Source: a virus (taxonomy: Duplodnaviria > Heunggongvirae > Uroviricota > Caudoviricetes). Taken from it: a stretch of DNA of 64,000 nucleotides. The notes beneath the pieces are model-generated. The model searched no databases and was not told the origin of the DNA. It was given only the letters and a program-made list of their open reading frames with translations. Positions 48 through 22,672 of this stretch are shown here, piece after piece. Each line of letters opens with the position of its first letter. Positions within the stretch are counted from its first letter, which is position 1. The DNA is taken from IMG/VR virus record IMGVR_UViG_3300021979_000001, positions 2,948-66,947 of that record; one strand, 5' to 3'. The translations under genes and the position numbers were made by a program.

Positions 48-308
48 TTAATTATAATAACCATCCCCTTCCCCAAAACCATAACCGTGCCCATCCCCAA
101 TACCAGTGCCAATACCAGTGCCAATACCAATATCAATAATAAAACCATGACCATGACCATGACCAAAACCATAACCATGACCATCACTATGACCATCACT
201 ATGCCCATTCCCATGCCCCGAATCATCCGAAAAACCATGACCAAACCCATATGTCTCGTTATTGGTTATTAATGGTATTGAATAATATAAATTATAAGTT
301 GCAACCAT
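48..308 (-). CDS. Gly-X repeat small protein, subfamily A
   Basis: N-term MVATYNLYYSIPLITNNETYGFG; core with HG/DG/YG dipeptides and a (GIGT)3 block; AAAGG 9 nt upstream of ATG. Confidence 0.6.
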   Translation of the reverse strand: MVATYNLYYSIPLITNNETYGFGHGFSDDSGHGNGHSDGHSDGHGYGFGHGHGHGFIIDIGIGTGIGTGIGDGHGYGFGEGDGYYN

Positions 309-328
309 AATTGGTAACCTTTTGTTCG

Positions 329-547
329 TTAATTATAATAACCATCTTCATCTACATGACCAGACCCAAAACTAGAGCCAAGACCATATCCATGACCATA
401 ACCATCGCCAGGACCATCACCATTCCCCGAGCCATGACCAGACCCAAAACTAGAGCCATAATCATTACCAAAACCACGACCAAACCCATATGTCTCGTTA
501 TTGGTTATTAATGGTATTGAATAATATAAATTATAAGTTGCGACCAT
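329..547 (-). CDS. Gly-X repeat small protein, subfamily A
   Basis: start moved to ATG at 545-547 (MVATYNLYYSIPLITNNETYGFG); the track ORF extends upstream through the alternative frame of the neighbouring copy. Confidence 0.55.
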   Translation of the reverse strand: MVATYNLYYSIPLITNNETYGFGRGFGNDYGSSFGSGHGSGNGDGPGDGYGHGYGLGSSFGSGHVDEDGYYN

Positions 548-575
548 AATTGGTAACCTTTTGTCCTTTTGTCCT

Positions 576-809
576 TTAATCATAACCGTGTCCATAGCCA
601 TGACCATTTCCATTCCCAATCCCATTCCCACTCCCAAGCCCATACCCAAAACCATAACCATCGCTATCCCCATAGCCTTCGCCATAACCATTCCCATGAT
701 TTGAGCCATAACCAGAACCAGAACCAGACACCGTTCCACAATCATACCCATATGTCTCGTCATTGGTTATTAATGGCATCAAATAATATAAATTATATAT
801 TGTAACCAT
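576..809 (-). CDS. Gly-X repeat small protein, subfamily A
   Basis: N-term MVTIYNLYYLMPLITNDETYGYD; GYG/NG/SG core. Confidence 0.6.
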   Translation of the reverse strand: MVTIYNLYYLMPLITNDETYGYDCGTVSGSGSGYGSNHGNGYGEGYGDSDGYGFGYGLGSGNGIGNGNGHGYGHGYD

Positions 810-829
810 AACGGGTAACCTTTCTTTCT

Positions 830-1010
830 TTAACCATAGCCATCCCCATAATCAAACCCACGATCATACTCATGACACGACCTGGCCCGTCCCAAAACTA
901 GAGCCATATTCATTACCATGACCCGAACCATAACCATCATTAGGTGACGCATATTTAATATAATTTAATTTTATTTTATTTTATTTTATTTTATGTATAT
1001 ATTCATGATA
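830..1010 (-). pseudogene. decayed array member (subfamily B-like), coordinates approximate
   Basis: minus strand reads ATG AAT ATA TAC ATA AAA TAA (MNIYIK-stop) followed by an (AAAAT)n tract; the Gly-X-like tail remains downstream. Confidence 0.4.
965..996. repeat. (ATTTT)n microsatellite inside decayed array copy
   Basis: ttttattttattttattttatt visible at 966-995. Confidence 0.8.
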
Positions 1011-1087
1011 TGTTGTTCGAGTAAAACCAGAATCACTTATATTATAACTCAACTATTACATTATTGGGTAAAATCGTCTCCATCGAT

Positions 1088-1315
1088 TTAACCAAAACCA
1101 TGACCATAACCAAAACCATTTCCGTAACCGTCACCAACCCCATCACCATAACCATCCCCATAACCATAACCGTCACCATCTCCCTGACTATCCCCATAAC
1201 TATTGCCATAACCAAAACCATAACCTTCGCCATCACCATCGCCAGGACCATCACCATACTCGTCGTCATTGGTTATTAATGGTATCGAATAATATAAATT
1301 ATAAATTGTAACCAT
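1088..1315 (-). CDS. Gly-X repeat small protein, subfamily A
   Basis: N-term MVTIYNLYYSIPLITNDDEYGDG. Confidence 0.6.
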   Translation of the reverse strand: MVTIYNLYYSIPLITNDDEYGDGPGDGDGEGYGFGYGNSYGDSQGDGDGYGYGDGYGDGVGDGYGNGFGYGHGFG

Positions 1316-1335
1316 AACTGGTAACCTTTTGTTCT

Positions 1336-1566
1336 TTAATAATAACCATCCTCTGATCCACCCCCAAGCCCATCTCCATCACTATCCCCATCCCCATACC
1401 CATAGCCATCTCCATCCCCATAACCATGACCATCGCCATCCCCATAACCATAACCATCCCCAGACCCATAACCCAACACCGTTCCACAATCATGCCCATG
1501 CGTCTCGTCATTGGTTATTAATGGTATCGACGAATATAAAATATAAATTATAACCATAACTGGCAA
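1336..1566 (-). CDS. Gly-X repeat small protein, subfamily A
   Basis: N-term MPVMVIIYILYSSIPLITNDETHGHD; core of (GYGDGD)n. Confidence 0.55.
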   Translation of the reverse strand: MPVMVIIYILYSSIPLITNDETHGHDCGTVLGYGSGDGYGYGDGDGHGYGDGDGYGYGDGDSDGDGLGGGSEDGYY

Positions 1567-1577
1567 TCGTTTATCCT

Positions 1578-1847
1578 TTAATCATAACCCGCGCCATTCC
1601 CATGACCATTACCAATACCATGCCCACCGCCATAGCCACCACGCCCATTCCCTAAACCATGCCCATCACTATCCCCATAGCCAAACCCATTCCCATAATA
1701 TGAGACATAACCAGAACCAAAACCATTTCCAGAACCAGAACCATCACCATTCCCAATACCATCACCATTCCCCAAGCCATCACTATCATCATCGCCATCA
1801 TTGTATGAACTGGAATTGATATAATTTAATTTTATGGATATATTCAT
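1578..1847 (-). CDS. Gly-X repeat small protein, subfamily B
   Basis: N-term MNISIKLNYINSSSYNDGDDDSDG. Confidence 0.6.
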   Translation of the reverse strand: MNISIKLNYINSSSYNDGDDDSDGLGNGDGIGNGDGSGSGNGFGSGYVSYYGNGFGYGDSDGHGLGNGRGGYGGGHGIGNGHGNGAGYD

Positions 1848-1878
1848 AATTCACGCACCTGGTGAAAAATAAGTTGAA

Positions 1879-2190
<312 letters not shown>

Positions 2191-2220
2191 TAGATGTCGC
2201 TCCGGTAAAAATAAGTTAAA

Positions 2221-2442
2221 TCATTTATAACCATAACCATAACCATCGCCAGAACCATCTCCATTCCTCTCCCCAGAACCATCACCATGACCATCACCAT
2301 AACCAATACCAGAACCATTCCCATAGCCATGACTATAACCAGTCCCATGCACCGAACCATCCGCAAAACCATGACCAAACCCATATGTCTCGTCATTGGT
2401 TATTAATGGTATCGAATAATATAAAATATAAATTGTAACCAT
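2221..2442 (-). CDS. Gly-X repeat small protein, subfamily A
   Basis: start moved to MVTIYILYYSIPLITNDETYGFG. Confidence 0.55.
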   Translation of the reverse strand: MVTIYILYYSIPLITNDETYGFGHGFADGSVHGTGYSHGYGNGSGIGYGDGHGDGSGERNGDGSGDGYGYGYK

Positions 2443-2469
2443 AACTGATAATCTTTCTTTTTTAATCAT

Positions 2470-2650
2470 AACAATCCCAGCCCCAAAACCATGACCGGAA
2501 CTATCATTATAAACAATACCGGAACCAGAATCATAATCATAATCATAATCACAACCAGAGCCATCATAGCGTGACCAGGATTTGATATAATTTAATTTTA
2601 TTTTATAGAGATAATCAGGATATGTTGCTCCGGTAAAAACTGAATAAATT
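2470..2650 (-). pseudogene. decayed array member (B-like remnant), coordinates approximate
   Basis: Gly-X-like sequence and the 'ttgatataatttaattttat' leader remnant are present but the start codon is lost (ataatc instead of atattcat); no ORF in the Gly frame. Confidence 0.35.
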
Positions 2651-2675
2651 ATATTATAATTTAATTATTGCTTTA

Positions 2676-2903
2676 TTAGTAAAACTCCGATCCAGAACCA
2701 TGGCCCTTTCCATATTTCTTACCATATCCAGAACCAGAACCATAATCATACCCACACCCTTCACCATCGGCAGAACCATCGCGATTGCCATCCCCAGTGC
2801 CATACTCATTCCCATTGCCATGTCCATAGCTATATCCATATCCATGAACGGTGTCATGATCAGATATATTGATGTAAAATGACTGGGTTATGGATGATTT
2901 CAT
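2676..2903 (-). CDS. Gly-X repeat small protein, subfamily E
   Basis: likely start MKSSITQSFYINISDHDTVHGYG; the track ORF reads in frame through the spacer up to 2960, where the next copy's stop lies. Confidence 0.5.
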   Translation of the reverse strand: MKSSITQSFYINISDHDTVHGYGYSYGHGNGNEYGTGDGNRDGSADGEGCGYDYGSGSGYGKKYGKGHGSGSEFY

Positions 2904-2959
2904 GAATGGGTCATACCTGTAAAATGAATTATTCATAATGTAATCCAATTGTTGCATCA

Positions 2960-3163
2960 TTAGCTATGATCACGGCCATAACCATGCCCATCCCCATAAC
3001 CATCACCATCAACATGACCACTCGCATAGCCACGACCATAACCAGAATCAAGACCATCACCATAACCGAAATCACGACCAGAACCAGAACCATTCCCATA
3101 GCCATATGTCTCGTGATTGGTTATTAATGGTATCACATAATATAACTCATATATTGTAACCAT
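2960..3163 (-). CDS. Gly-X repeat small protein, subfamily A
   Basis: N-term MVTIYELYYVIPLITNHETYGYG. Confidence 0.6.
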   Translation of the reverse strand: MVTIYELYYVIPLITNHETYGYGNGSGSGRDFGYGDGLDSGYGRGYASGHVDGDGYGDGHGYGRDHS

Positions 3164-3183
3164 AACGGATGATCTTTCTTTTT

Positions 3184-3417
3184 TTAATTATAGTCCGCGC
3201 CATTCTCATGACCATCACCGCAACCATCACCATAAATATGACCATAACCATGACCATAACCATATCCATGACCATCACCATGACCGAAACCACGACCAGA
3301 ACCAGAACCATTCCCATAGCCATATGTCTCGTGATTGGTTATTAATGGTATCACATAATATAACTCATATATTGTAACCATACCTGTAACCATACCTGTA
3401 ACCATACCTGTAACCAT
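3184..3417 (-). CDS. Gly-X repeat small protein, subfamily A, with tandemly repeated start region
   Basis: N-term (MVTG)x3 then MVTIYELYYVIPLITNHETYG; a 12-nt unit repeated 4 times creates alternative in-frame ATGs. Confidence 0.55.
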   Translation of the reverse strand: MVTGMVTGMVTGMVTIYELYYVIPLITNHETYGYGNGSGSGRGFGHGDGHGYGYGHGYGHIYGDGCGDGHENGADYN

Positions 3418-3420
3418 ACC
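3371..3420. repeat. 12-nt tandem repeat (accatacctgta)x4 at the 5' end of an array gene
   Basis: taccatacctgtaaccatacctgtaaccatacctgtaaccatacc. Confidence 0.8.
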
Positions 3421-3437
3421 TGGTAACCTTTTGTTCG

Positions 3438-3641
3438 TTAATCATAACCCGCGCCATAGCCATGACCATTTCCATTCCCAAGCCCATTACCACTCCCAAG
3501 CCCTTTTCCAAAACAATAACCATCACTATCCCCATAGCCATCCCCATGACCATTCCCATGATTTGAACCATTCCCATAGCCATATGTCTCGTGATTGGTT
3601 ATTAATTGTATCGAATAATATAATTTATAAATTGTAACCAT
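3438..3641 (-). CDS. Gly-X repeat small protein, subfamily A
   Basis: N-term MVTIYKLYYSIQLITNHETYGYG. Confidence 0.6.
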   Translation of the reverse strand: MVTIYKLYYSIQLITNHETYGYGNGSNHGNGHGDGYGDSDGYCFGKGLGSGNGLGNGNGHGYGAGYD

Positions 3642-3661
3642 AACTGGTAACCTTTTGTTTT

Positions 3662-3754
3662 TTAATCATAATCCGCGCCATGACCATTTCCATGGCCTGA
3701 ATTCTCATAGATTGCCCAGGATTTGATATAATTTAATTTTATGGATATATTCAT
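3662..3754 (-). CDS. truncated mini-member (30 aa), subfamily B
   Basis: my translation: MNISIKLNYIKSWAIYENSGHGNGHGADYD-stop; intact ATG and stop but a very short core. Confidence 0.3.
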   Translation of the reverse strand: MNISIKLNYIKSWAIYENSGHGNGHGADYD

Positions 3755-3810
3755 AATTCACGCACCGGTAAAAACTGAATCACTTATATTATAATTCAAT
3801 TATTGATTGA

Positions 3811-4068
3811 TTAGTAAAACTCCGATCCAGAACCATGACCCTTTCCATATTTCTTACCATATCCAGAACCAAAACCATGTCCATAACCACAACCCTTGTC
3901 GGAACCGGAACCATTGCCATCATCGTATCCATCCCCAAAACCAGAACCAAAACCATCGCCATGACCATAACCATTTCCAGAACCATAACTGGAACCATAA
4001 CCAGAACCATCAAGTCCATTTCCTGGAAGATCGGATTTGTGATAATGTAACGTTATGGATATATTCAT
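3811..4068 (-). CDS. Gly-X repeat small protein, subfamily B
   Basis: likely start MNISITLHYHKSDLPGNG (ATG at 4066-4068); the track extends upstream in frame. Confidence 0.55.
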   Translation of the reverse strand: MNISITLHYHKSDLPGNGLDGSGYGSSYGSGNGYGHGDGFGSGFGDGYDDGNGSGSDKGCGYGHGFGSGYGKKYGKGHGSGSEFY

Positions 4069-4127
4069 GGTATGCCACCCCCGGTAAAACAAAGTATTCA
4101 TATTATAATTCACGTATTGCATCATTA

Positions 4128-4280
4128 TTAAAAACCATGACCCTTGTCAGAACTATAACCACAGCCATTATAATATATGCCATCACCATAATCAGAACCC
4201 CTTCCCATTCCCGAACCATAATTAGAATCATGTTCGGTCAGATCAGGATTTAGTTGACTTAATTTTATGGATGTATTCAT
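4128..4280 (-). CDS. Gly-X repeat small protein, subfamily B (short)
   Basis: likely start MNTSIKLSQLNPDLTEHDSNYG. Confidence 0.5.
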   Translation of the reverse strand: MNTSIKLSQLNPDLTEHDSNYGSGMGRGSDYGDGIYYNGCGYSSDKGHGF

Positions 4281-4336
4281 AATTATTATCACACCAGATA
4301 AAAAATAAATCACTATACTATAATTCAATTATTACA

Positions 4337-4564
4337 TCATTTGCTATGGCTCGAACCATGACCATCCCCATCCCCATACCCAGCACCAGCACCAGCACCA
4401 TCGTCATGACCACTACCATTGCCATAACCATCACCATCCCCAGAACCATAACCAAAACCATAACCATTACCATAATGATAAGCAGAACTATAAGCAGAAC
4501 CATCACCATAAACATTATAGGTTTGATCAGGTTCTTGGAAATAGGTTTCAATTGATGTATTCAT
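4337..4564 (-). CDS. Gly-X repeat small protein, subfamily C
   Basis: N-term MNTSIETYFQEPDQTYNVYG; TATAAATA lies 26 nt upstream on the coding strand. Confidence 0.6.
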   Translation of the reverse strand: MNTSIETYFQEPDQTYNVYGDGSAYSSAYHYGNGYGFGYGSGDGDGYGNGSGHDDGAGAGAGYGDGDGHGSSHSK

Positions 4565-4603
4565 AAGTAGCACACCAGGTAAAAACGAATTATTTATATT
4601 ATA
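4565..4603 (-). promoter_or_regulatory. conserved array spacer with TATAATATAAATA element (contains T4 late-promoter-like TATAAATA)
   Basis: minus strand reads tgctataatataaataattcgtttttacctggtgtgctactt then ATG. Confidence 0.4.
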
Positions 4604-4606
4604 GCA

Positions 4607-4882
4607 TCATTTGCTATGGCTCGCACCATTACCAAAACCATAACATGCTCCATGACCACTACCATGACCACGACCATTGCCATAACCATGACCATTGCCA
4701 TAACCATAACCATGACCATAACCATCCCCACAACCAGAGCCATCCCTAGACCCATCCCCGTCGTCATCCCCATCCCCATCGCTATAACCCTCCCCATCGC
4801 CAGGACCAGAGCCATGACCAAAACCATAAATATTATCGGGTTGATCAGGTTCTTGGAAATAGGTTTCAATCGATGTATTCAT
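4607..4882 (-). CDS. Gly-X repeat small protein, subfamily C
   Basis: N-term MNTSIETYFQEPDQPDNIYGFG. Confidence 0.6.
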   Translation of the reverse strand: MNTSIETYFQEPDQPDNIYGFGHGSGPGDGEGYSDGDGDDDGDGSRDGSGCGDGYGHGYGYGNGHGYGNGRGHGSGHGACYGFGNGASHSK

Positions 4883-4924
4883 AAGTAGCACACCAGGTAA
4901 AAACGAATTATTTATATTATAGCA
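4883..4924 (-). promoter_or_regulatory. conserved array spacer with TATAATATAAATA element
   Basis: identical to the 4565-4603 spacer. Confidence 0.4.
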
Positions 4925-5182
4925 TCATTTGCTATGGCTCGCACCATTACCATCACCATCCCCATCACCATTCCCTCTACCATACTCAATACCAAAACCA
5001 GTCCCAAAACCATGACCATTGCCATAACCATCACCATAACCATCCCCATTACCAGCCCCATCACCATAACCATAACCATAACCATAACCCTCCCCATCGC
5101 CATGACCAGAACCATGTCCATAACCATAAATATTATCGGGTTGATCAGGTTCTTGGAAATATGTTTCAATTGATGTATTCAT
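4925..5182 (-). CDS. Gly-X repeat small protein, subfamily C
   Basis: N-term MNTSIETYFQEPDQPDNIYGYG. Confidence 0.6.
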   Translation of the reverse strand: MNTSIETYFQEPDQPDNIYGYGHGSGHGDGEGYGYGYGYGDGAGNGDGYGDGYGNGHGFGTGFGIEYGRGNGDGDGDGNGASHSK

Positions 5183-5234
5183 AGTAGCACACCAGGTAAA
5201 AATGAATTATTTGTATTATAATTCAAGTATTGCA

Positions 5235-5519
5235 TCATTTTCTAATACCACGATTGCTGCCATATCTTCTGCCATATCCAAACGTATTACTAACCCTAAA
5301 CCCATTACCATTGCCATAACCATCACCAAAACCATGACCATAACCATCTCCCTCCCCATCCCCATCGCCAGAACCATCGGCAGAACCATCGCGATTGCCA
5401 TCCCCATAGCCATCCCCAGAACCATCCCCAGAACCATCCCCAGAACCATCACCATACATAAAATCATCGTTCGTTAGATGGGAATTAACGCAATAATACA
5501 ATTCAATCGAAATATTCAT
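5235..5519 (-). CDS. Gly-X repeat small protein, subfamily D
   Basis: N-term MNISIELYYCVNSHLTNDDFMYG; core of (GDGSGD)n. Confidence 0.6.
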   Translation of the reverse strand: MNISIELYYCVNSHLTNDDFMYGDGSGDGSGDGSGDGYGDGNRDGSADGSGDGDGEGDGYGHGFGDGYGNGNGFRVSNTFGYGRRYGSNRGIRK

Positions 5520-13185: not shown

Positions 13186-13243
13186 GATCTGCTTCCTAGG
13201 TAATAAAATTGCTCATTCATGTTATACTTCAATTAATGCATCA

Positions 13244-13465
13244 TTAGTCAAAAAAACTAACGGAACCATTCCCATAGCCATAACTAGAACCATTGTCCAA
13301 ACCCTCGTTATAATCTTTTCCAGAACTATAACCATTTCCATAATCATAACCAAACCCGGCCCCATAGCCAAAACACCTGTAACTGGTATCTGCACCGGAA
13401 CCGAAACCAGAATCATTTATGGATAGATCAGACTCTTGATGATTTAATTTTACGAATATAGTCAT
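13244..13465 (-). CDS. Gly-X repeat small protein (divergent)
   Basis: N-term MTIFVKLNHQESDLSINDSGFG. Confidence 0.55.
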   Translation of the reverse strand: MTIFVKLNHQESDLSINDSGFGSGADTSYRCFGYGAGFGYDYGNGYSSGKDYNEGLDNGSSYGYGNGSVSFFD

Positions 13466-13517
13466 TATATGCCATATAAGGTAATAAGTTTAATAAATCA
13501 TATTATAATTGGTTGCA

Positions 13518-13745
13518 TCAATCACCATGACCCTTACCATCTCCAAAACCATACCCGAAACTATAACCAAACACCGAACCAATACCCTCGCCAACACCAA
13601 TACGGAAATCATTACCATCCCCATTCCCATAACCAAAACCATAACTTTCCCCAGTATAATAACCCGAACTCGGTTCATTACCCAACCACCCATCGGGTGT
13701 TAGGTCGGTGTTATAACAATAATACATTTTTATTGGCGTATTCAT
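13518..13745 (-). CDS. Gly-X repeat small protein (divergent)
   Basis: likely start MNTPIKMYYCYNTDLTPDGW. Confidence 0.5.
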   Translation of the reverse strand: MNTPIKMYYCYNTDLTPDGWLGNEPSSGYYTGESYGFGYGNGDGNDFRIGVGEGIGSVFGYSFGYGFGDGKGHGD

Positions 13746-13812
13746 AATTATTTTACCGAGTGACAAAAATAAGTTAACTAAATTGCATTACAACTTAGTG
13801 GTATCATTAATA

Positions 13813-14043
13813 TTACGTATCCCCATAATCATAACCAAATCCAGAACCCTTACCATAACCATTTCCCTGCTCGCCACCATACCCCGCACCAACCCCAGAA
13901 CCGTAACTATCTCCATTATTATAACCAGCACTGGCCCCCATCCCATAACTCAAACCATTACCAAAACCCAAACCAGACCCATCCCAGGAGACATCTTTTT
14001 TTAGATAGGGTTCGTGATAACACCAGTCGATAGCGGTATTCAT
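13813..14043 (-). CDS. Gly-X repeat small protein (divergent)
   Basis: likely start MNTAIDWCYHEPYLKKDVSWDG. Confidence 0.5.
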   Translation of the reverse strand: MNTAIDWCYHEPYLKKDVSWDGSGLGFGNGLSYGMGASAGYNNGDSYGSGVGAGYGGEQGNGYGKGSGFGYDYGDT

Positions 14044-14096
14044 AATTATCATCTCGGTAAAAAATGAAAGTTCAAATCACATATATTTCAATTATT

Positions 14097-14290
14097 CGGA
14101 ATTACACCCCAGAGTGCCATACCTAAACCCAAAACCAAAACCATATTCATTCTCACCACCATATCCCTGACCGGAACACGAGCCATAACTATGACCATGA
14201 CTATGACCGGAACTATCGGTATGATCCGGTTCATCACCTGTTTCATTAGTGTGGTCATCGACAAAACAATAACATGTTTATATTCATGTT
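14097..14290 (-). pseudogene. frameshifted array member, coordinates approximate
   Basis: a leader-like ATG AAT ATA AAC ATG.. is out of frame with the downstream Gly-X core (..GHSHGHSYGSCSGQGYGGENEYGFGFGF..); no intact ORF. Confidence 0.35.
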
Positions 14291-14313
14291 ATAATAAGAG
14301 CCATTTGAATAAT

Positions 14314-14550
14314 TTACGATATACGTCCATGACCATGACCATTGCCCGCCCCAAAACCATAATTATAACCATGCTCATTACCGGCGCTATCCCCAGCACC
14401 ATCCCCCATGCCATAACCTGCATGATACTCATTCCCATGACCCAACCCCGGACTATGATCATCCCCATAATCATCCCCGGCACCGGAACCAGAATTATCA
14501 GTTTTTAGATCGGGGTTATCGCAGTAATGAAACATAATCGATGGTTTCAT
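14314..14550 (-). CDS. Gly-X repeat small protein (divergent)
   Basis: likely start MKPSIMFHYCDNPDLKTDNSGSG. Confidence 0.5.
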   Translation of the reverse strand: MKPSIMFHYCDNPDLKTDNSGSGAGDDYGDDHSPGLGHGNEYHAGYGMGDGAGDSAGNEHGYNYGFGAGNGHGHGRIS

Positions 14551-14581
14551 AATTGTTTCACCAAGTAAAAAATAAGTTAAA

Positions 14582-14824
14582 TTATTCACCATCTACGTTG
14601 CCATGACCATTGCCCGTCCCAAAACCATAACTATAACCATACCCATCATCCACACCATACCAGGCACCATCACCATTGCCATAACCCACGTCATATTGAT
14701 TCCCATAACCTTTCCCCGGACTATAATCATCCCCAGGATCATACCCGGCACATGAACCAGAGCCAGAACCATCGGTTATTGGATCGGGTTCATAGCAATA
14801 ATTAAATGCAATCGGTAGATTCAT
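14582..14824 (-). CDS. Gly-X repeat small protein (divergent)
   Basis: N-term MNLPIAFNYCYEPDPITDGSGSG. Confidence 0.55.
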   Translation of the reverse strand: MNLPIAFNYCYEPDPITDGSGSGSCAGYDPGDDYSPGKGYGNQYDVGYGNGDGAWYGVDDGYGYSYGFGTGNGHGNVDGE

Positions 14825-14877
14825 AATTGGTTCACCAATGAGAAAAAATAAGTTAAATCATTCACATTATATTTCAA

Positions 14878-15183
14878 TTATTCATAATTACGCCCAGTGC
14901 CATGCCCATCCCCATACCCAAAACCATCACCATCACTAGACACATAACCATCACCATCAACATAACCAATACCATTGCCAGCCCCATCACCATCACCATC
15001 AACATAACCAATACCATTGCCAGCCCCATCACCCATGCCATAACCTTCGTCATAATCATTCCCATAACCCTGCCCCGGATTATGATAATCCCCAGAATCA
15101 TAACCGGCACCGGAAACGGAACCATCACCATCACTTACTAGATCGGGGTTATTGCAATAATTAAATGTAATTGATGGTTTCAT
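14878..15183 (-). CDS. Gly-X repeat small protein (divergent) with internal 15-aa duplication
   Basis: N-term MKPSITFNYCNNPDLVSDGDG; GDGAGNGIGYVDGDG occurs twice. Confidence 0.55.
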   Translation of the reverse strand: MKPSITFNYCNNPDLVSDGDGSVSGAGYDSGDYHNPGQGYGNDYDEGYGMGDGAGNGIGYVDGDGDGAGNGIGYVDGDGYVSSDGDGFGYGDGHGTGRNYE

Positions 15184-15243
15184 AATTATTTCACTAAATG
15201 GTTAAACCACGTCAAATCGCACAGTTAGATTACAGGTATTGCA

Positions 15244-15444
15244 TCATTCACCCCTATTCCCATCACCACGACCATAACCCTCACCAGAAACAAAACCTTT
15301 ACCTGAACCATTCCCAAATCCATACACATTACCATAAGATATACCAAAACCATCCTCGGTGCCATGATCAGAGCCATGACCAAAACCATAAACATTGTTG
15401 GGTATATCATGGTTTTGGAAATATGATTCAATCGATATATTCAT
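15244..15444 (-). CDS. Gly-X repeat small protein (C-like)
   Basis: likely start MNISIESYFQNHDIPNNVYGFG. Confidence 0.5.
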   Translation of the reverse strand: MNISIESYFQNHDIPNNVYGFGHGSDHGTEDGFGISYGNVYGFGNGSGKGFVSGEGYGRGDGNRGE

Positions 15445-15512
15445 AATTAAATCATTCATTTATTACATCATCAACTGTTACCAGGTCCATTGTCATACCC
15501 GCTTATCGGCAT

Positions 15513-15770
15513 CTATTCAGGTTCACCACTTGATCCATCCCAGTTTCCACGACTCGAACCATTACCAAATCCAAAAGCCGAACAATAACCATTTTTGTGA
15601 ATAAAAATATGTTCATACGTTTTGCCATCACCATAACCATAACCATAACCAGAACCATATCCATAACCATTACCAAATCCAAAAACCGAACCATTATCTG
15701 AAACAATTTCCGAAACAATTTCATTTGGGCTGCTATCATCGCAATATAATAAATTTATCAGTTCATACAT
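15513..15770 (-). CDS. Gly-X repeat small protein (divergent)
   Basis: N-term MYELINLLYCDDSSPNEIVSEIVSDNGSVFGFG. Confidence 0.5.
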   Translation of the reverse strand: MYELINLLYCDDSSPNEIVSEIVSDNGSVFGFGNGYGYGSGYGYGYGDGKTYEHIFIHKNGYCSAFGFGNGSSRGNWDGSSGEPE

Positions 15771-15779
15771 AATTAATAC

Positions 15780-15890
15780 TGACCATCCATCGAACCCTCA
15801 CCAAACCCATGACCATATCCATAAATGTCACCAACATCATCACATTCGCCGCCCCATTTGTATGACAGTAGTTCGTTAGGACGTCATAAT
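15780..15890 (-). pseudogene. array member remnant without start codon, coordinates approximate
   Basis: Gly-X frame ..YKWGGECDDVGDIYGYGHGFGEGSMDGQY-stop with no in-frame ATG. Confidence 0.3.
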
Positions 15891-15989
15891 TAAAATAATA
15901 AAACCCGATTAATATATTAATGATACGGACACCCCAAGTGATAAAAAATGATTTAAATCACTACAACTATAATTCAACTGTTAAGTTCG

Positions 15990-16238
15990 TTAATCCGATC
16001 CATGACCGAAACCAGCACCATATCCAGTCCCAAAACCATCCCCATCACTAGAGCCATGACCATGACCATGACCATCTTTATAGTCTTGACCAGACCCGAC
16101 ACCATTGCCATCCCCATCACCTAGACCATAACCTTTGCCATCCCCTTTACCATAGCCTTCACCATCGCCATCATCATAACTGATTTCCTTTTGATCGGCG
16201 GTATTTATGTAAAAAGATAGGATTACGTATGTGTTCAT
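15990..16238 (-). CDS. Gly-X repeat small protein (divergent)
   Basis: N-term MNTYVILSFYINTADQKEISYDDGDG. Confidence 0.55.
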   Translation of the reverse strand: MNTYVILSFYINTADQKEISYDDGDGEGYGKGDGKGYGLGDGDGNGVGSGQDYKDGHGHGHGSSDGDGFGTGYGAGFGHGSD

Positions 16239-16290
16239 AATATGTCACTCCAAACACAACAATAATAATTCAAAATACACATATTATATT

Positions 16291-16530
16291 TCAATAAGCA
16301 CCGTCACCATAACCATGCCCCCAATGCCCAGTCATATTTGTATCCCCAATATCAAACCCATTCCCATTCCCATTCCCTTTTCCAAAACCAAAACCATAAC
16401 CATCACTATCCCCATTATGATGGACATAACTAAGACTATAACCTTTCCAATTGTCATACCCATCATACCCATCACTATCATCATATTCACAGATATGGAC
16501 ATAATAATACAATATTATGTTAATGTGCAT
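16291..16530 (-). CDS. Gly-X repeat small protein (divergent)
   Basis: likely start MHINIILYYYVHICEYDDSDGYDGYD. Confidence 0.45.
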   Translation of the reverse strand: MHINIILYYYVHICEYDDSDGYDGYDNWKGYSLSYVHHNGDSDGYGFGFGKGNGNGNGFDIGDTNMTGHWGHGYGDGAY

Positions 16531-16578
16531 TACGAGTTCCCACATGTAAATAACATAATCAAACAGTTAATATAATAT

Positions 16579-16839
16579 CTATTTCATGGTCATATAAAAA
16601 TGATCTGTTTCATTACCATCATTGGCACCAGCCCCATGTCCAACACCGTTACTATCACCTAAATCATCACCCGAAGCAGAATCATCCCCCATACCAGAAT
16701 TATTTGTATGTCCAGAACCACTTCCTCTACCATATCCAAACACATGTCCTTTTTTATGTCCATGCGCAAACCCACGACCATAGTGATACCAATTACTATA
16801 TACATCGACACAATAAATTACTTTTATGGGCAATTTCAT
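16579..16839 (-). CDS. Gly-X repeat small protein (divergent)
   Basis: likely start MKLPIKVIYCVDVYSNWYHYGRG. Confidence 0.5.
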   Translation of the reverse strand: MKLPIKVIYCVDVYSNWYHYGRGFAHGHKKGHVFGYGRGSGSGHTNNSGMGDDSASGDDLGDSNGVGHGAGANDGNETDHFYMTMK

Positions 16840-16901
16840 TATTAACATCCAATCAATTAAATAGATAAACCGTAATAATTATAATTATTTCTTACACTAA
16901 T

Positions 16902-17180
16902 TCACCATGATTTTCTGACCCATTTATGCGAGCCGTAACCAATATTATAACTTGACCCATATCCATTTCCCTGTCCATCAGCATAACCATAACCATGCCC
17001 TGCCCCTGAAAGATAACTAACCCCTAACGTTGGGCTTGTATCCCCAACATATGCAGAGCCATCCCCCTGCCCGTCACCTTTAACAGAACCATCCTCATAC
17101 TCCGAACCAGTTCTAGTCCCGGAAAAGTTGTTATAAAGATCGGCATTTCGGTAAAAACACGATTTTATGGTGGGTTTCAT
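16902..17180 (-). CDS. Gly-X repeat small protein (divergent)
   Basis: likely start MKPTIKSCFYRNADLYNNFSG. Confidence 0.5.
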   Translation of the reverse strand: MKPTIKSCFYRNADLYNNFSGTRTGSEYEDGSVKGDGQGDGSAYVGDTSPTLGVSYLSGAGHGYGYADGQGNGYGSSYNIGYGSHKWVRKSW

Positions 17181-17238
17181 ACTTATCACACTTGCAAAAA
17201 GTTGGATTAGTCATAAAATAAACACAATGGTGGCTGCA

Positions 17239-17484
17239 TTACCCGAAACTATCACCGAAATAAAAACCGTAAGCGTGACCACATCCAAGACCCTCACAAT
17301 TACCAGATTTAGCATTTAATCCATAATCCTGACCATGACCGTAAACGGCCCAATATCGAATTACGTAACTTATTTCATAATGAGAACCACTTCCCTGCCC
17401 CTCGCCATAACCACCCCCATTACGAATTAAAGAACCATTACCCGAACGTTTTATGTAATATAAATCTATTGGTATATTTGCCAT
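17239..17484 (-). CDS. Gly-X repeat small protein (divergent)
   Basis: N-term MANIPIDLYYIKRSGNGSLIRNGGGYG. Confidence 0.45.
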   Translation of the reverse strand: MANIPIDLYYIKRSGNGSLIRNGGGYGEGQGSGSHYEISYVIRYWAVYGHGQDYGLNAKSGNCEGLGCGHAYGFYFGDSFG

Positions 17485-17533
17485 TTGACTTCGCCAAGTA
17501 AAAATGGATATATGGAGATAATCATTTCATTGT

Positions 17534-17728
17534 TCACTCTGCCATAGCACCATGCCCATAGCCATAACCACCATCAAACACGTTCCCATACCCATTACTA
17601 TCCCCATCCTCATACCCATCGCTAGAGTCAGACCCGTATCCATACCCGGTTCCATCACTATTGCCATATCGATAGCTATTATTATGTTGATCAACTGTGT
17701 AATATAGTAGTGTTATAGGTAGTTTCAT
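17534..17728 (-). CDS. Gly-X repeat small protein (divergent)
   Basis: N-term MKLPITLLYYTVDQHNNSYRYG. Confidence 0.55.
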   Translation of the reverse strand: MKLPITLLYYTVDQHNNSYRYGNSDGTGYGYGSDSSDGYEDGDSNGYGNVFDGGYGYGHGAMAE

Positions 17729-17826
17729 TGTTTTATTACCAAGTTGGGTTCAACCGAAATAATACTGGTAAGTATATCAATCATACTCATATATCATTTA
17801 ATAATATAAGGGATAATGTAGTTTGG

Positions 17827-18213
17827 TTAGTCCTGTCCTAACGCATCTGACGAAAACGGATGTGAATTATCCATATGCTGACTGCATAACCATTCAATTC
17901 CAGTAATGGAGTAAACACCATTAACTGCGGGCGCGCCGCAATAATGACATTTTTTGTGTGCCATTTCGGACGTTCCGTCGTGTTTAGCACGTTTTTTACT
18001 GAACTTGGACTTTGTAAAATGCCCCGCTTTCATCTGGGTAACGGATTTACCCATTGCTCGGTAATTTGCCCCATTAATTCCTGTTGTTTTGGTTTGGTGT
18101 TTTGCTTTACACCCTTTACAACAATACTGCGCCCATCCTCGATTGCGATCTGCAATTCTTGCTTCAAAATCAGTTTTACACCATAAGCAAGAAAATGTTC
18201 CAGTGGCCGCCAT
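17827..18213 (-). CDS. Cys-rich putative zinc-ribbon protein
   Basis: several CxxC pairs (CLWC, CCKGCK, CHYCG); locally GC-richer; interrupts the array before its last member. Confidence 0.4.
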   Translation of the reverse strand: MAATGTFSCLWCKTDFEARIADRNRGWAQYCCKGCKAKHQTKTTGINGANYRAMGKSVTQMKAGHFTKSKFSKKRAKHDGTSEMAHKKCHYCGAPAVNGVYSITGIEWLCSQHMDNSHPFSSDALGQD

Positions 18214-18348
18214 AGGTCAAATCTCCATAATGGGGGGTAAAAATCATAAACAATTGTAGTATTTTTGGTTATATAAAGCAAAGATTAAAATTATTGTTTT
18301 TTGATGATTGGAATGGCATATAACACGGTGTCATCAATAACTTATTTC

Positions 18349-18594
18349 TCAATCAACCAAGTTTGCAATACCAAAACCATAACCGTTACTATCGCCTTCG
18401 GTATTACCTGGACCATCCCCATAACCTTCCCCATTACTTACACTATTACTAAATCCAAAACCATGCCCTGAACCATTACCAAAACTACGACCACAACCAC
18501 CCCCGTATTCTGATATAGCAATATCACCTACGGAATCATCATCACCTGGATAAAAATCGACGATATGATATGATAGTATGACAGTTTTCATCAT
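18349..18594 (-). CDS. Gly-X repeat small protein (outlying, divergent member)
   Basis: N-term MMKTVILSYHIVDFYPGDDDSVGD followed by a GxG-rich core. Confidence 0.5.
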   Translation of the reverse strand: MMKTVILSYHIVDFYPGDDDSVGDIAISEYGGGCGRSFGNGSGHGFGFSNSVSNGEGYGDGPGNTEGDSNGYGFGIANLVD

Positions 18595-22667: not shown

Positions 22668-22672
22668 GATTT

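What the first reader, a model, noticed from the sequence alone, without database searches (positions are those of the whole stretch)
48..18594. Array is organised in subfamily blocks with near-identical neighbours and a divergence gradient
Adjacent copies are often almost identical in leader and spacer but differ in core length. Examples are 11447..11698 versus 11757..12026, 7128..7382 versus 7437..7691, 9300..9575 versus 9628..9882 versus 9938..10153, and 4607..4882 versus 4925..5182. Members at 12.3-18.6 kb are each distinct. This is the signature of ongoing unequal crossing-over and gene conversion (birth-and-death evolution) at the left side with older diverged copies at the right. Subfamily A (MVTIYNLYY) clusters at 0-3.6 kb, C and D at 4.3-8.1 kb, and E at 5.6-12 kb, interleaved with the others.
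Basis: seen in the sequence. Interest (0 to 1): 0.65.

Follow-up and report, generated by a model that had tools for sequence, protein, structure and literature searches.

The report
Giant phage array of glycine-repeat genes
A 457-kb phage from a metagenome carries at least 66 back-to-back copies of a tiny gene for a floppy, acidic glycine-repeat protein. Other phages keep this gene in one to four copies directly beside the gene for an Sm-like (Hfq/LSm-fold) protein, and no paper in the searched library mentions that gene pair.

Summary
Window 48..18591 (minus strand) has 58 intact small genes plus at least 5 dead copies. Each gene is a ~20-aa leader, a Gly-X dipeptide-repeat core and a short tail. 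Copies at 0-12 kb form spatially clustered subfamilies with 94-100% identical tracts. Copies at 12.3-18.6 kb are each distinct. The pattern is a plateau followed by a decline, not a smooth gradient. The array continues at least 2.3 kb left of the window.

Recombination-driven birth-and-death evolution is well supported by five observations:
- a two-gene higher-order repeat present three times;
- 5' and 3' gene ends with uncorrelated histories;
- cores built from patches of other copies;
- pseudogenes;
- dispersed duplications.

The parts
48..12026 (-). Homogenised zone of the array. It holds 40 intact (GX)n genes (g0-g39) in spatially clustered subfamilies (MVTIYNLYY, MNTSIETYF, MNTSIELYYC, MKPYINQSFY, MNLPINQYFC, MNQSIHQSFY and others) and continues left of the window.
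   Evidence: Best leader+spacer match has a median of 0.85. All but one of the 22 tracts at 94-100% identity lie here. L004 shows 8 more genes beyond position 1.
5235..7074 (-). Higher-order repeat. A bicistronic unit (promoter-like spacer, MKPYINQSFY gene, short spacer, MN[IT]SIE[LP]YYC gene) is present three times.
   Evidence: the repeat finder D12 gives spacings of 628 and 633 nt. Long and short spacers alternate in the upstream alignment. Leader clusters are {18,20,22} and {19,21,23}.
9628..9937 (-). A representative unit: gene 9628-9882 (84 aa) plus its upstream spacer. The spacer carries the conserved motif TAATGATGCAAyAmTTGAATTAyAATAT...TTTTACAGGyGTGACC..ATG.
   Evidence: Consensus of the 58 upstream regions. 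TTGAATTATAATAT with up to 2 mismatches occurs 25 times in the window against 4.9 expected, 20 of them on the minus strand of the array. Sigma-70-type sites are not enriched, 96 against 89 +/- 10.
870..1006 (-). Pseudogene. The leader ATGAATATATACATAAAA is interrupted by a 20-nt (TAAAA)4 insertion that gives a stop and a frameshift.
   Evidence: Sequence read directly. The remnant frame without a start was listed.
12085..12189 (-). Degenerate copy without a start codon and with a collapsed core. It keeps the GHDNS tail of the neighbouring subfamily.
12271..18591 (-). Diverged zone. It holds 18 intact (GX)n genes (g40-g57), each distinct. Divergence increases towards the DUF6948 end, and the zone is interrupted by an unrelated gene.
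   Evidence: Best leader+spacer match is 0.57-0.77 and declines with position, rho -0.67, p = 0.002. Exact-match coverage of cores is 11%.
17827..18213 (-). An unrelated 128-aa Cys-rich (zinc-finger-like) gene sitting between the last two array members.
   Evidence: ORF list. PHROG hits only to families of unknown function, with a weak DksA-like zinc-finger hit.
18662..19147 (-). A 161-aa ORF of unknown function between DUF6948 and the first array member. It is absent at this position in the other DUF6948 loci.
   Evidence: No Pfam, NCBIfam or PHROG family. Not related to the C-terminal domain of the long (GX)n proteins.
19269..19664 (-). DUF6948 (PF22253) gene with a predicted Sm/LSm-like fold. 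It is the conserved partner of (GX)n genes in other phages and lies upstream of the array on the same strand.
19896..20882 (+). Glucosaminidase-domain gene next to DUF6948. The same neighbour recurs in one other DUF6948 locus (L178). Its link to the module is uncertain.
   Evidence: Pfam PF01832, E = 9e-18. L178 gene table.

Best explanation
**What it is.** The region is a tandem multigene family of at least 21 kb and at least 66 genes. The window holds 58 intact genes and at least 5 dead ones. Each gene encodes a 30-103 aa protein (median 80 aa) that is strongly acidic and predicted to be disordered. The protein has three parts:
- a ~20-aa N-terminal leader specific to this lineage;
- a core of Gly-X dipeptide repeats, where X is mostly D, Y, S, N or H;
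- a short tail.

**Where it comes from.** It is a lineage-specific hyper-expansion of a gene that other phages keep in one to four copies. In those phages the gene lies directly beside the gene for DUF6948, usually behind it and overlapping its 3' end. DUF6948 is a small protein whose model has an Sm/LSm (Hfq-like) fold.

**How the array changes.**
- Unequal homologous recombination between the conserved tail-spacer-leader modules duplicates one-gene and two-gene units.
- Short-patch gene conversion and slippage in the 6-nt-periodic cores shuffle the cores and change their length.
- Some copies die by insertion or truncation.
- The copies nearest DUF6948, the likely ancestral position, are the most diverged. 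The distal 12 kb and beyond is the actively homogenised zone.

**Shown:** the anatomy, the coding frame, the recombination signatures, the DUF6948 linkage, the predicted fold and the predicted disorder.

**Inferred (probability about 0.3):** the (GX)n proteins act together with the Sm-like protein as low-complexity tails supplied in trans. The analogies are the glycine-rich acidic C-terminal domain of Acinetobacter Hfq and the RG tails of eukaryotic Sm proteins. On this view they tune nucleic-acid binding or build a condensate or gel-like assembly, and the many copies, most with their own promoter-like spacer, supply dosage and variety.
For: **Coding and anatomy.**
- There are 0 stops in the Gly frame of 58 genes, against 84-555 in the other frames.
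- The ATG, an AGGTG-like motif and the spacer motif are conserved.
- The core is 38% G, 11.5% D, 11% Y, 9% S, 7% N and 5% H. The median net charge is -8 and there are about four [GS]Y[GS] motifs per protein.
- The AF2 model has pLDDT 39 and no fold.

**Size.** The array continues in L004 with 8 more genes.

**Recombination.**
- Higher-order repeat.
- Clustering of 4.1 against 13.7, with none of 5000 permutations as low.
- Leader and tail identities uncorrelated, rho 0.04.
- Mosaic maps and long-range tracts.
- Pseudogenes.

**DUF6948 linkage.**
- The window has DUF6948 at the head of the array.
- Seven of 7 loci found by searching for DUF6948 carry a (GX)n ORF directly downstream on the same strand. 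These are L054, L175, L177, L178, L179, L180 and L181. The overlap with the end of DUF6948 is 10-26 nt in the five loci where it was measured.
- Twelve loci found through their (GX)n genes, with no reference to DUF6948, turned out to have DUF6948 beside the (GX)n ORF. Eleven came from the DNA pattern (GG-N4)x12 and one (L053) from the peptide-profile search.
- Two cultured phages have the pair. Ralstonia phage NK-7 has it annotated as 'fibroin heavy chain-like protein'. Iodobacter phage PhiPLPE has an unannotated 81-aa ORF.
- Background: 46 unrelated jumbo-phage loci (about 700 kb) contain no small (GX)n gene.

**Analogies from papers.** Acinetobacter baumannii Hfq has an Sm core, GGFGGQ repeats and an acidic tip that matter for RNA binding and autoregulation (PMC11617691). 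LSm-like fold proteins in T4 affect mRNA stability (PMC12152347).
Against: - No experiment bears on function, and no interaction between DUF6948 and the peptides has been shown or modelled.
- In the window a 161-aa ORF separates DUF6948 from the first array member, so the typical overlap is absent.
- The window-type leader is not shared by the DUF6948-linked peptides of other phages in general (PSSM test, Mann-Whitney p = 0.33). Only L053, L003 and L177 score in the top 1-4% of controls. Homology of the peptides across phages therefore rests on architecture, composition and synteny, which low-complexity sequence can mimic.
- The Sm assignment is by predicted fold only. Foldseek E-values are about 1e-2, and no Pfam LSM/Hfq hit was listed for the protein. 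Ring formation and RNA binding are untested.
- Three smaller (GX)n arrays (L003, L090) or array ends have too little flank to say whether DUF6948 is present.
- Part of the array order (9533-11383) has no second assembly behind it.
Confidence: 0.6

Rival explanations
1. The genes are a library of RiPP precursors (leader plus variable core) matured by the radical SAM enzyme encoded 3 kb away at 21579-22667.
For: The genes have a leader-core-tail architecture, with many variants behind a conserved leader. The neighbouring protein is a radical SAM enzyme with weak hits to twitch/SPASM peptide-maturase families.
Against: - The radical SAM gene has 46 homologues in IMG/VR contigs (32-57% identity, several from jumbo-sized contigs of 200-520 kb). 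In most of them it follows the same module of paralogous genes (window 22936-26123), and none has a (GX)n gene within 10 kb.
- No radical SAM family appears in the gene tables of the DUF6948 loci that have one. The (GX)n genes elsewhere sit beside DUF6948 instead.
- All NCBIfam scores are far below the curated cut-offs (52 bits against 380).
- The radical SAM domain starts at residue ~14, which leaves no room for an N-terminal peptide-recognition domain.
- Cysteine is rare in the peptides (0.9 per protein).
Confidence: 0.06
2. The genes encode capsid-internal (ejection) proteins. The conserved leader would be a capsid-targeting sequence removed by the prohead protease, as in the diverse T4 internal proteins or the paralogous inner-body proteins of phiKZ-like phages.
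For: - A conserved N-terminal leader precedes a variable body.
- A Glu lies near the leader-core junction in 40 of 58 genes.
- The host genome is a jumbo myovirus-like phage.
Against: - The residue three before the junction Glu is mostly D or N. It is L or I in only 5 of 40 genes and S, A or G in 2 of 40. Neither the T4 gp21 motif (L/I-x-E) nor the phiKZ motif (S/A/G-x-E) is met (both motifs are from my own knowledge).
- The proteins are strongly acidic.
- No head genes were identified among the neighbours that were searched.
- The same kind of gene occurs in small phages as a single copy coupled to an Sm-like gene.
Confidence: 0.1
3. The (GX)n proteins are a bulk fibrous or gel-forming material (silk-, resilin- or coat-like, possibly cross-linked through tyrosine). 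DUF6948 would be only their assembly chaperone or nucleator, with no role for RNA.
For: - Alternating Gly-X sequence is silk-like, and one homologue is annotated 'fibroin heavy chain-like'.
- The very high gene dosage, with a promoter-like spacer for most copies, suggests a product needed in bulk.
- Tyr makes up 11% of the core.
- Peptidoglycan hydrolase genes are neighbours in 4 loci: the window, L178, L180 and L003.
Against: - There is no signal peptide or hydrophobic segment. The median of the highest 15-aa hydropathy value per protein is 0.1.
- AF2 gives no ordered structure.
- The high negative charge works against packing into sheets.
- Nothing here distinguishes this reading from the main explanation, and the two overlap.
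Confidence: 0.15
4. The block structure is an artefact of short-read metagenome assembly of a repeat, or the ORFs are by-products of a non-coding 6-nt-periodic DNA repeat.
For: The other assemblies of this phage break inside the repeat zone, and one contig end is chimeric (L002). The other reading frames are also partly open (MVMV and TITI ORFs).
Against: - Contigs from other assemblies agree with window 1-9532 and 11975-14322 at 100% identity, and with 1-1401 and 11384-14475 at 99.86-99.97%.
- Only the Gly frame is open through leader and core in 58 of 58 units.
- The same protein architecture recurs in unrelated phages with different DNA.
- There are no Rfam matches.
Confidence: 0.04

Closest known systems
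Hfq of Acinetobacter (Sm core, GGFGGQ glycine-rich repeats, acidic C-terminal tip) and, from my own knowledge, eukaryotic SmD1/SmD3/SmB/LSm4 with (RG)n or low-complexity tails
   Same: An Sm-fold protein is associated with a long, disordered, glycine-rich repeat region, which in Hfq includes an acidic part. In Hfq the repeat number matters for RNA binding and autoregulation (PMC11617691).
   Different: Here the repeat protein is a separate gene, not a C-terminal domain, and it has been multiplied to at least 66 copies. The repeat is a strict Gly-X dipeptide rich in D, Y, S and N. DUF6948 has no listed hit to the LSM or Hfq sequence families, and its RNA binding and ring formation are untested.
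LSm-like fold family GoF/MotB.1/Frd.2 of T4-like phages (PMC12152347)
   Same: These are small phage proteins recognised as LSm-like only by structure prediction, with a suspected post-transcriptional role.
   Different: They are a different sequence family. The paper does not mention glycine, so no glycine-repeat partner gene is described. [quoted passage not shown]
T-even internal proteins with a shared capsid-targeting sequence (PMC3012670)
   Same: A cluster of genes shares a short conserved N-terminal leader in front of variable bodies.
   Different: The protease motif is not met. The bodies here are low-complexity and acidic rather than folded defence inhibitors. The partner gene is an Sm-like protein.
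RiPP precursor families with many paralogues behind one leader, for example prochlorosins (own knowledge)
   Same: Conserved leader, variable core, tens of paralogues.
   Different: There is no co-conserved maturase. The cores are repeats rather than hypervariable unique sequences. The genes are strictly tandem.
Tandem multigene families under concerted and birth-and-death evolution, for example rDNA and satellite arrays with diverged edge copies, or the multigene families of African swine fever virus (own knowledge)
   Same: Unequal crossing-over, gene conversion, higher-order repeats, pseudogenes, and homogenised interior copies with diverged edge copies.
   Different: This one is in a bacteriophage, at a scale (at least 66 genes, at least 21 kb, about 4.6% of a 457-kb genome) that I do not know of in any other phage.
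FUS-type low-complexity domains with [G/S]Y[G/S] motifs, which drive phase separation (own knowledge)
   Same: Disordered, with Gly, Ser and Tyr in abundance. Each protein has about four [GS]Y[GS] motifs.
   Different: These proteins are much shorter and very acidic. No phase behaviour has been tested.

Membership tests
Tandem multigene family evolving by unequal crossing-over and gene conversion | Paralogues are head-to-tail, and similar copies lie closer together than chance allows. | tested here: met
   All 58 genes are on one strand. The distance in genes to the best match is 4.1, against 13.7 +/- 1.7 in 5000 permutations, none as low.
Tandem multigene family evolving by unequal crossing-over and gene conversion | There are higher-order (multi-gene) repeat units. 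| tested here: met
   A two-gene unit is present three times at 5235-7074, with spacings of 628 and 633 nt.
Tandem multigene family evolving by unequal crossing-over and gene conversion | Genes are mosaics: different segments of one gene have different closest relatives. | tested here: met
   Leader and tail identities have rho 0.04. Five gene pairs have leader identity of 0.9 or more with tail identity below 0.7, and five pairs show the reverse.
Tandem multigene family evolving by unequal crossing-over and gene conversion | There are dead copies (pseudogenes). | tested here: met
   The copy at 870-1006 has a (TAAAA)4 insertion and the copy at 12085-12189 has no start. Further copies without a start are at 2470-2664, 14092-14277 and 15773-15883.
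Tandem multigene family evolving by unequal crossing-over and gene conversion | Copy number varies between individuals or relatives. | tested here: inconclusive
   Other assemblies of the same phage are identical where they overlap. Distant phages have 1-4 copies, but no close relative with an array was found.
Sm/LSm/Hfq superfamily (for DUF6948) | Sm fold: an N-terminal helix followed by a strongly bent five-stranded antiparallel sheet. | tested here: met
Sm/LSm/Hfq superfamily (for DUF6948) | Match to the LSM or Hfq sequence profiles (Sm1 and Sm2 motifs). | tested here: not met
   The Pfam scan lists only PF22253 (DUF6948) at E <= 0.01. There is no PDB sequence match at E <= 1.
Sm/LSm/Hfq superfamily (for DUF6948) | Hexameric or heptameric ring and RNA binding. 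| not testable with these tools
DUF6948 + (GX)n gene pair (a module defined here) | A (GX)n ORF lies on the same strand directly beside the DUF6948 gene. | tested here: met
   This holds in 7 of 7 loci found through DUF6948, in 12 of 12 loci found through their (GX)n genes that also contain DUF6948, and in two cultured phages (one of which, PhiPLPE, is counted among the 20 loci). In the window, one ORF of 161 aa lies between the two.
DUF6948 + (GX)n gene pair (a module defined here) | The peptides are homologous beyond composition, that is, they share a leader. | tested here: not met
   A window-leader PSSM does not separate partner peptides from control N-termini (p = 0.33). Only L053, L003 and L177 fall in the top 1-4% of controls.
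RiPP precursor plus radical SAM maturase | Maturase and precursor genes co-occur across relatives. | tested here: not met
   Forty-six loci with a homologue of the radical SAM gene have no (GX)n gene within 10 kb. No radical SAM family is listed in the gene tables of the DUF6948 loci.
RiPP precursor plus radical SAM maturase | Leader-core precursor architecture. | tested here: met
   The leader is conserved (M1, I5, [YF]9, [IV]11, N12) and the core varies.
RiPP precursor plus radical SAM maturase | The maturase reaches a curated family threshold or has a peptide-recognition domain. | tested here: not met
   The best NCBIfam score is 52 bits against a cut-off of 380. The radical SAM domain begins at residue ~14.
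Capsid-targeted internal proteins (T4 IP type or phiKZ inner-body type) | Protease site at the end of the leader (L/I-x-E or S/A/G-x-E). | tested here: not met
   The residue three before the junction Glu is L or I in 5 of 40 genes and S, A or G in 2 of 40. D and N dominate.
Capsid-targeted internal proteins (T4 IP type or phiKZ inner-body type) | Presence in virions. | not testable with these tools
   No proteomic data are available.
Sulphur globule proteins or silk fibroin (compositional look-alikes) | Family profile match above threshold, and for sulphur globule proteins a signal peptide. | tested here: not met
   PF17228 gives E = 0.3 and 12 bits against a cut-off of 26.7. No hydrophobic N-terminus is present. 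The 'fibroin-like' label in NK-7 reflects composition.

The most novel reading that the evidence does not exclude
Phages widely encode a two-part system that has not been described: an Sm-like protein (DUF6948) plus a separately encoded, disordered Gly-X repeat protein that works as its detachable low-complexity tail. Together they would bind nucleic acid or build a condensate-like compartment. In this 457-kb phage the tail gene has been amplified into a recombining library of at least 66 variants, making it the largest tandem gene family I know of in a phage and a natural experiment in dosage and diversification of a low-complexity protein.
Probability: 0.2. Interest if true: 0.85.

Novelty: new variant of a known kind. 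Interest (0 to 1): 0.7.

Why it matters
- **Evolutionary dynamics in a phage.** A phage genome can sustain concerted and birth-and-death evolution of a tandem gene family on a scale normally associated with eukaryotic or large DNA-virus genomes. The array has at least 66 genes and takes up about 4.6% of a 457-kb genome.
- **A first functional lead for DUF6948.** This Pfam domain of unknown function has a predicted Sm/LSm fold and an obligate glycine-repeat neighbour.
- **Annotation.** It brings attention to small low-complexity phage genes that annotation often misses or misreads. The partner gene is unannotated in phage PhiPLPE and is called 'fibroin-like' in NK-7. In the array itself only a few of the copies turned up among the called proteins in the database searches.
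- **Testability.** Two cultured phages carry the single-copy module, so the function can be tested directly.
- **Wider relevance.** If the analogy with Hfq and Sm tails holds, it would show that the pairing of an Sm core with a glycine-rich tail can be split into two genes and tuned by gene copy number.

Tried and rejected
1. **Radical SAM / RiPP link: rejected.** Rejected by comparing 46 loci that carry a homologue of the radical SAM gene.
2. **Known protein families for the peptides: none.** Pfam and PHROGs give only compositional, sub-threshold hits such as TrAA12, CFAP143, keratin head and sulphur globule protein.
3. **Profile searches with the 56-gene alignment: little outside this phage.**
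   - The searches covered 5.8 billion proteins and 1.84 billion cluster representatives.
   - Every hit that includes the leader comes from this phage itself.
   - The rest are unrelated domains carrying (GYGDGS)n tails, plus a few distant relatives (P0030, P0043, P0083).
4. **The search for related loci with the peptide alignment: failed.** No stretch of the alignment was conserved enough to search with.
5. **Structure of a peptide: no fold.** The model is disordered (pLDDT 39), so no fold search was possible.
6. **Sigma-70 promoters and intrinsic terminators: not enriched**.
7. **Rfam: no match in 1-20000**.
8. **Megablast of 20 kb of the window against phage records: no match**.
9. **Prohead-protease cleavage motif at the leader-core junction: not met**.
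10. **A leader shared by all DUF6948-linked peptides: not supported**.
11. **The 161-aa ORF against the C-terminal domain of long (GX)n proteins: unrelated**.
12. **Literature searches: no paper on this.** The terms covered DUF6948, DUF7666, glycine-rich phage arrays and jumbo-phage paralogues. None describes the array or the module.
13. **First self-BLAST attempts at a dot plot: replaced.** Gapped extension through the cores hid the identical tracts. I replaced them with an ungapped diagonal scan.
14. **DNA of the 457-kb source contig: not obtained.** The contig's DNA was not returned, so neither the left end of the array nor the rest of the genome could be examined.

Full report
**What is in the sequence**

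Positions 1-18.6 kb differ from the rest of the window. GC skew on the plus strand is -0.32 to -0.51 there and close to zero elsewhere. The cause is a run of small genes on the minus strand.

I found 58 genes with an ATG and a recognisable leader between 48 and 18591. At least five further copies lack a start or are truncated.

Each gene has three parts:
- a leader with a median of 20 residues before the first G-x-G, with consensus M-x-x-x-I-x-x-x-[YF]-x-[IV]-N (I5 in 46 of 58, Y/F9 in 54 of 58);
- a core in which about every second residue is glycine;
- a short tail that falls into families (GASHSK/GESHNK, GRDHS(Q), GCNYN, GHDNS, GSGSEFY, GAGYD, GYYN).

The core is 38% G, 11.5% D, 11% Y, 9% S, 7% N and 5% H. 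The median net charge is -8 and the median length is 80 aa.

Because the DNA has a 6-nt period, other frames also give long ORFs (MVMV..., TITI...). Only the glycine frame is open through leader and core in all 58 units. It has 0 stops, against 84-555 in the other frames.

There is no Rfam match. AlphaFold2, run with the 56-paralogue alignment, gives pLDDT 39 and no structure. These are small, acidic proteins that are predicted to be intrinsically disordered.

**Units and signals**

Upstream of most genes lies a conserved spacer: TAATGATGCAAyAmTTGAATTAyAATAT ... TTTTACAGGyGTGACC..ATG. The motif TTGAATTATAATAT, allowing up to 2 mismatches, occurs 25 times in the window against 4.9 expected. Twenty of these are on the minus strand of the array. 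Sigma-70-type sites and intrinsic terminators are not enriched.

I read the TATAAT-like box without a -35 element, followed by an AGGTG about 10 nt before the ATG, as a phage-type promoter plus ribosome-binding site for each unit. This is inference.

Two groups lack the box. Subfamily A genes (MVTIYNLYY) follow the previous stop after about 20 nt. The MN[IT]SIE[LP]YYC genes follow an MKPYINQSFY gene after about 30 nt. These would be co-transcribed with the gene upstream.

**Check of the finding**

The quoted coordinates and pairs are correct. Over leader plus spacer (110 nt), the best match of each gene has a median of 0.85 for the 40 genes at 48-12026 and 0.66 for the 18 genes at 12271-18591 (p = 3.6e-8).

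There is no trend within the left zone, and a decline towards the right end within the right zone (rho -0.67, p = 0.002). The pattern is therefore a plateau followed by a decline.

An ungapped diagonal scan found 22 tracts of 95-231 nt at 94-100% identity. All lie below 12.1 kb except 6869-6975 against 12663-12769.

Subfamilies are strongly clustered. The mean distance in genes to the best match is 4.1, against 13.7 +/- 1.7 in 5000 permutations, and none was as low.

Four details need correction:
- 7128 and 7437 have equal length.
- Near-identity also occurs over long distances: 2836-3063 against 11019-11246, which is 96.5% over 228 nt.
- The identical tracts cover the gene boundaries (tail, spacer, leader) rather than whole units.
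- 14314 / 14582 / 14878 are a loose subfamily.

The array is not complete in the window. Contig L004 from another assembly overlaps window 1-1401 at 99.86% and continues for 2.3 kb with eight more genes. One stretch of it is 92% identical over 370 nt to window 8011-8380, which makes that a dispersed two-gene duplication.

Contigs L005 and L006 match window 1355-9532 and 1-7119 at 100%. L001 matches 11384-14475 at 99.97% and L002 matches 11975-14322 at 100%. The order is therefore not a quirk of one assembly. These contigs represent the same, almost clonal, phage, so they say nothing about copy-number variation. The stretch 9533-11383 has no second witness.

**Evolutionary mechanism**

Several independent signatures point to recombination.
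- The unit of a long spacer, an MKPYINQSFY gene, a short spacer and an MN[IT]SIE[LP]YYC gene is repeated three times with a period of 628-633 nt. This is what unequal crossing-over in a two-gene register produces.
- The 5' and 3' ends of genes have independent histories. Leader and tail identities across left-zone pairs have rho 0.04. Genes 2676 and 10820 share 98% of leader plus spacer but have unrelated tails. Genes 5899 and 7437 share 98% of the tail but have different leaders.
- Cores are patchworks. In gene 7437-7691, nt 1-106 match gene 7128, nt 132-181 match gene 4607 and nt 215-255 match gene 5899. A 63-nt exact patch links gene 6811 to gene 12617.
- Exact matches of at least 20 nt to other copies cover 44% of core bases on the left and 11% on the right.
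- Dead copies exist. A 20-nt (TAAAA)4 insertion breaks a leader at about 870-1006. A copy without a start and with a collapsed core lies at 12085-12189.

Two caveats apply. 'Ongoing' turnover is unproven. Conserved boundaries with variable cores may also reflect selection on the leader and spacer together with slippage in the periodic cores.

**What the genes are: leads that failed**

The peptides match no Pfam or PHROG family above threshold.

Profile searches of 5.8 billion proteins and of 1.84 billion representatives recover this phage's own genes, a few distant relatives (P0030, P0043, P0083) and many unrelated small proteins that carry (GYGDGS)n tails on other domains such as DUF7666.

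The obvious candidate partner was a radical SAM gene 3 kb from the array, with weak twitch/SPASM similarity. It belongs to another module. Its 46 homologues in IMG/VR contigs, several from contigs of 200-520 kb, mostly follow the same set of paralogous genes (window 22936-26123). None has a (GX)n gene within 10 kb. I reject the RiPP reading for this reason.

A capsid-targeting reading, modelled on the T4 internal proteins (PMC3012670), fails on the cleavage motif. The residue three before the junction Glu is mostly D or N.

**What the genes are: the lead that held**

Next to the diverged end of the array, on the same strand and upstream, lies a DUF6948 gene (19269-19664; Pfam E = 2e-12).

A distant relative of the peptides (P0083) sits between an AAA ATPase gene and a DUF6948 gene, with a second (GX)n ORF on the other side of DUF6948. 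A four-gene (GX)n array in an IMG/VR contig (L104) is followed by DUF6948 and then an AAA ATPase gene.

I tested the link in both directions.
- **Starting from DUF6948.** I fetched seven loci chosen for contig length or by a DUF6948 sequence pattern, without reference to their neighbours. All seven have a small (GX)n ORF directly downstream on the same strand. It overlaps the end of DUF6948 by 10-26 nt in the five loci where I measured it (L054, L175, L177, L178, L179, L180, L181).
- **Starting from the DNA pattern (GG-N4)x12 in IMG/VR.** An HMM of DUF6948 then found that gene beside the (GX)n ORF in eleven of the loci returned (L134, L157, L155, L107, L102, L096, L141, L104, L089, L138, L091).
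- **Cultured phages.** Two have the pair. In Ralstonia phage NK-7, the homologue is followed by a gene annotated 'fibroin heavy chain-like protein', which is MKRWHKPSGSGSGSGYGSG... In Iodobacter phage PhiPLPE, gp84 is followed by an unannotated 81-aa (GX)n ORF.

As a background figure, about 700 kb of unrelated jumbo-phage loci contain no small (GX)n gene.

Copy number beside DUF6948 is 1 in most loci, 2 in L053, 3 in L134 and 4 in L104. Here it is at least 66.

**DUF6948**

With 34 homologues, AlphaFold2 gives a confident model (pLDDT 84.8) of a helix followed by five strands, with a second helix between strands 3 and 4.

The family has many invariant polar residues (R41, R43, N44, E45, N48, R67, W80, Y81, E82). 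It has no listed hit to the LSM or Hfq sequence profiles.

No paper in the searched library mentions DUF6948. [quoted passage not shown]

**How it most likely works**

*Shown:*
- the array is a tandem family of genes for disordered acidic Gly-X repeat proteins;
- it evolves by recombination;
- it is attached to a DUF6948 gene, which in 20 other loci always has such a gene at its side;
- DUF6948 is predicted to have an Sm fold.

*Inferred:*
- The array arose by amplification of the single partner gene. The ancestral position is the DUF6948 end, where copies are most diverged, and the distal part is the zone still being homogenised.
- The proteins act with the Sm-like protein. The overlap of the two genes in most phages suggests coupled translation and hence a complex.
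- What is conserved across phages is the repeat body, not the leader. A PSSM of the window leaders does not pick out the partner peptides of other phages (p = 0.33), and only L053, L003 and L177 score in the top 1-4% of controls. The repeat body is therefore the likelier functional element, and the long leader is a feature of this lineage.

The nearest known arrangements are the Hfq of Acinetobacter and, from my own knowledge, the RG tails of eukaryotic Sm proteins. In Acinetobacter Hfq the Sm core is followed by GGFGGQ repeats and an acidic tip, which affect RNA binding and autoregulation (PMC11617691).

My best guess is that the peptides are low-complexity tails supplied in trans, which modulate nucleic-acid binding by the Sm-like protein or build a gel- or condensate-like assembly. 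The many copies, most with their own promoter-like spacer, would provide dosage and variety. I give this functional part a probability of about 0.3, and the structural and evolutionary part about 0.85.

**Context and limits**

The window is part of a 457,165-bp contig. Its DnaB-like helicase is 50-52% identical to those of the jumbo phages Phosso, Atu_ph07 and PA5oct.

Contig names suggest that the short contigs come from sample SAMN09060588 and JGI metagenome 3300021977. I could not retrieve the DNA of the large contig. The left end of the array and the rest of the genome are therefore unknown.

**Verdict**

The main result is new: a very large expansion of the glycine-repeat partner of an Sm-like phage protein, a gene pair that no paper in the searched library mentions.

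Noticed in passing
window 43934-47092 (+): The ribonucleotide reductase large subunit is in two ORFs (579 and 424 aa). Intein/HINT matches lie at the end of the first and the start of the second, which suggests an intein-interrupted or split RNR gene.
   Followed up: no
window 21579-26123 (-), and loci L007-L052: A radical SAM gene is preceded by four mutually paralogous genes of unknown function (22936, 23609, 24568, 25467). The radical SAM gene has homologues in 46 IMG/VR contigs and the paralogue module accompanies it in most of them. Several relatives carry 2-4 radical SAM paralogues (for example L046 and L052). The module is unrelated to the array and has no known function.
   Followed up: partly
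window 27034-28828: An EcoRV-like restriction endonuclease gene (27034-27771, +) lies next to a potassium-channel gene with an RCK/TrkA domain (27743-28828, -). An SPFH/Band 7 gene is at 31290-32687. These are unusual cargo for a phage.
   Followed up: no
window 17827-18213 (-): A 128-aa Cys-rich zinc-finger-like gene is inserted between the last two members of the array. It matches only PHROGs of unknown function.
   Followed up: partly
window 3373-3428 (-), gene 3184-3417: A 12-nt tandem repeat (4.6 copies, 97% matches) puts MVTG-MVTG-MVTG in front of one subfamily-A leader. This is an N-terminal extension made by slippage.
   Followed up: no
proteins P0004-P0120: Hundreds of small metagenomic proteins carry (GYGDGS)n stretches attached to unrelated globular parts: DUF7666, a 'GAC'-motif N-domain, or a C-terminal domain with NIAKGF...FAHG.TLREA. 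In L096, L141 and L155 such a longer (GX)n protein is the neighbour of DUF6948. The repeat seems to be a portable module.
   Followed up: partly
L182 1164-1409 (Iodobacter phage PhiPLPE, EU876853.1) and L183 2153-2566 (Ralstonia phage NK-7): The (GX)n partner gene is unannotated in PhiPLPE and is labelled 'fibroin heavy chain-like protein' in NK-7. Annotation pipelines miss or misname this class of gene.
   Followed up: yes
window 19896-20882; L178 10532-11335; L180 568-1566; L003 2086-2541: Peptidoglycan hydrolase genes (glucosaminidase, amidase, lysozyme) lie within a few kb of the (GX)n genes in four loci. This may be chance or a link to the lysis region.
   Followed up: no
L053 8820-9998 and L104 3-1103: An AAA ATPase gene (Pfam AAA in L053; Walker A-type GDMGSGKT motif in L104), of 392 and 366 aa, flanks the pair of (GX)n gene and DUF6948 in two distant loci. 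No such gene was seen next to the array in the window.
   Followed up: no
L002 2419-2521: The end of this JGI contig matches window 12023-12125 in inverted orientation, which is a likely assembly chimera at the repeat. Other assemblies of this phage break inside the array.
   Followed up: partly
window 1-18600, both strands: The 6-nt periodicity produces long spurious ORFs in other frames (MVMVLV... on the minus strand, TITITI... and HNHDH... on the plus strand). These can be called as genes in place of the real ones. Only a few of the real copies appeared among the called proteins in the database searches.
   Followed up: partly
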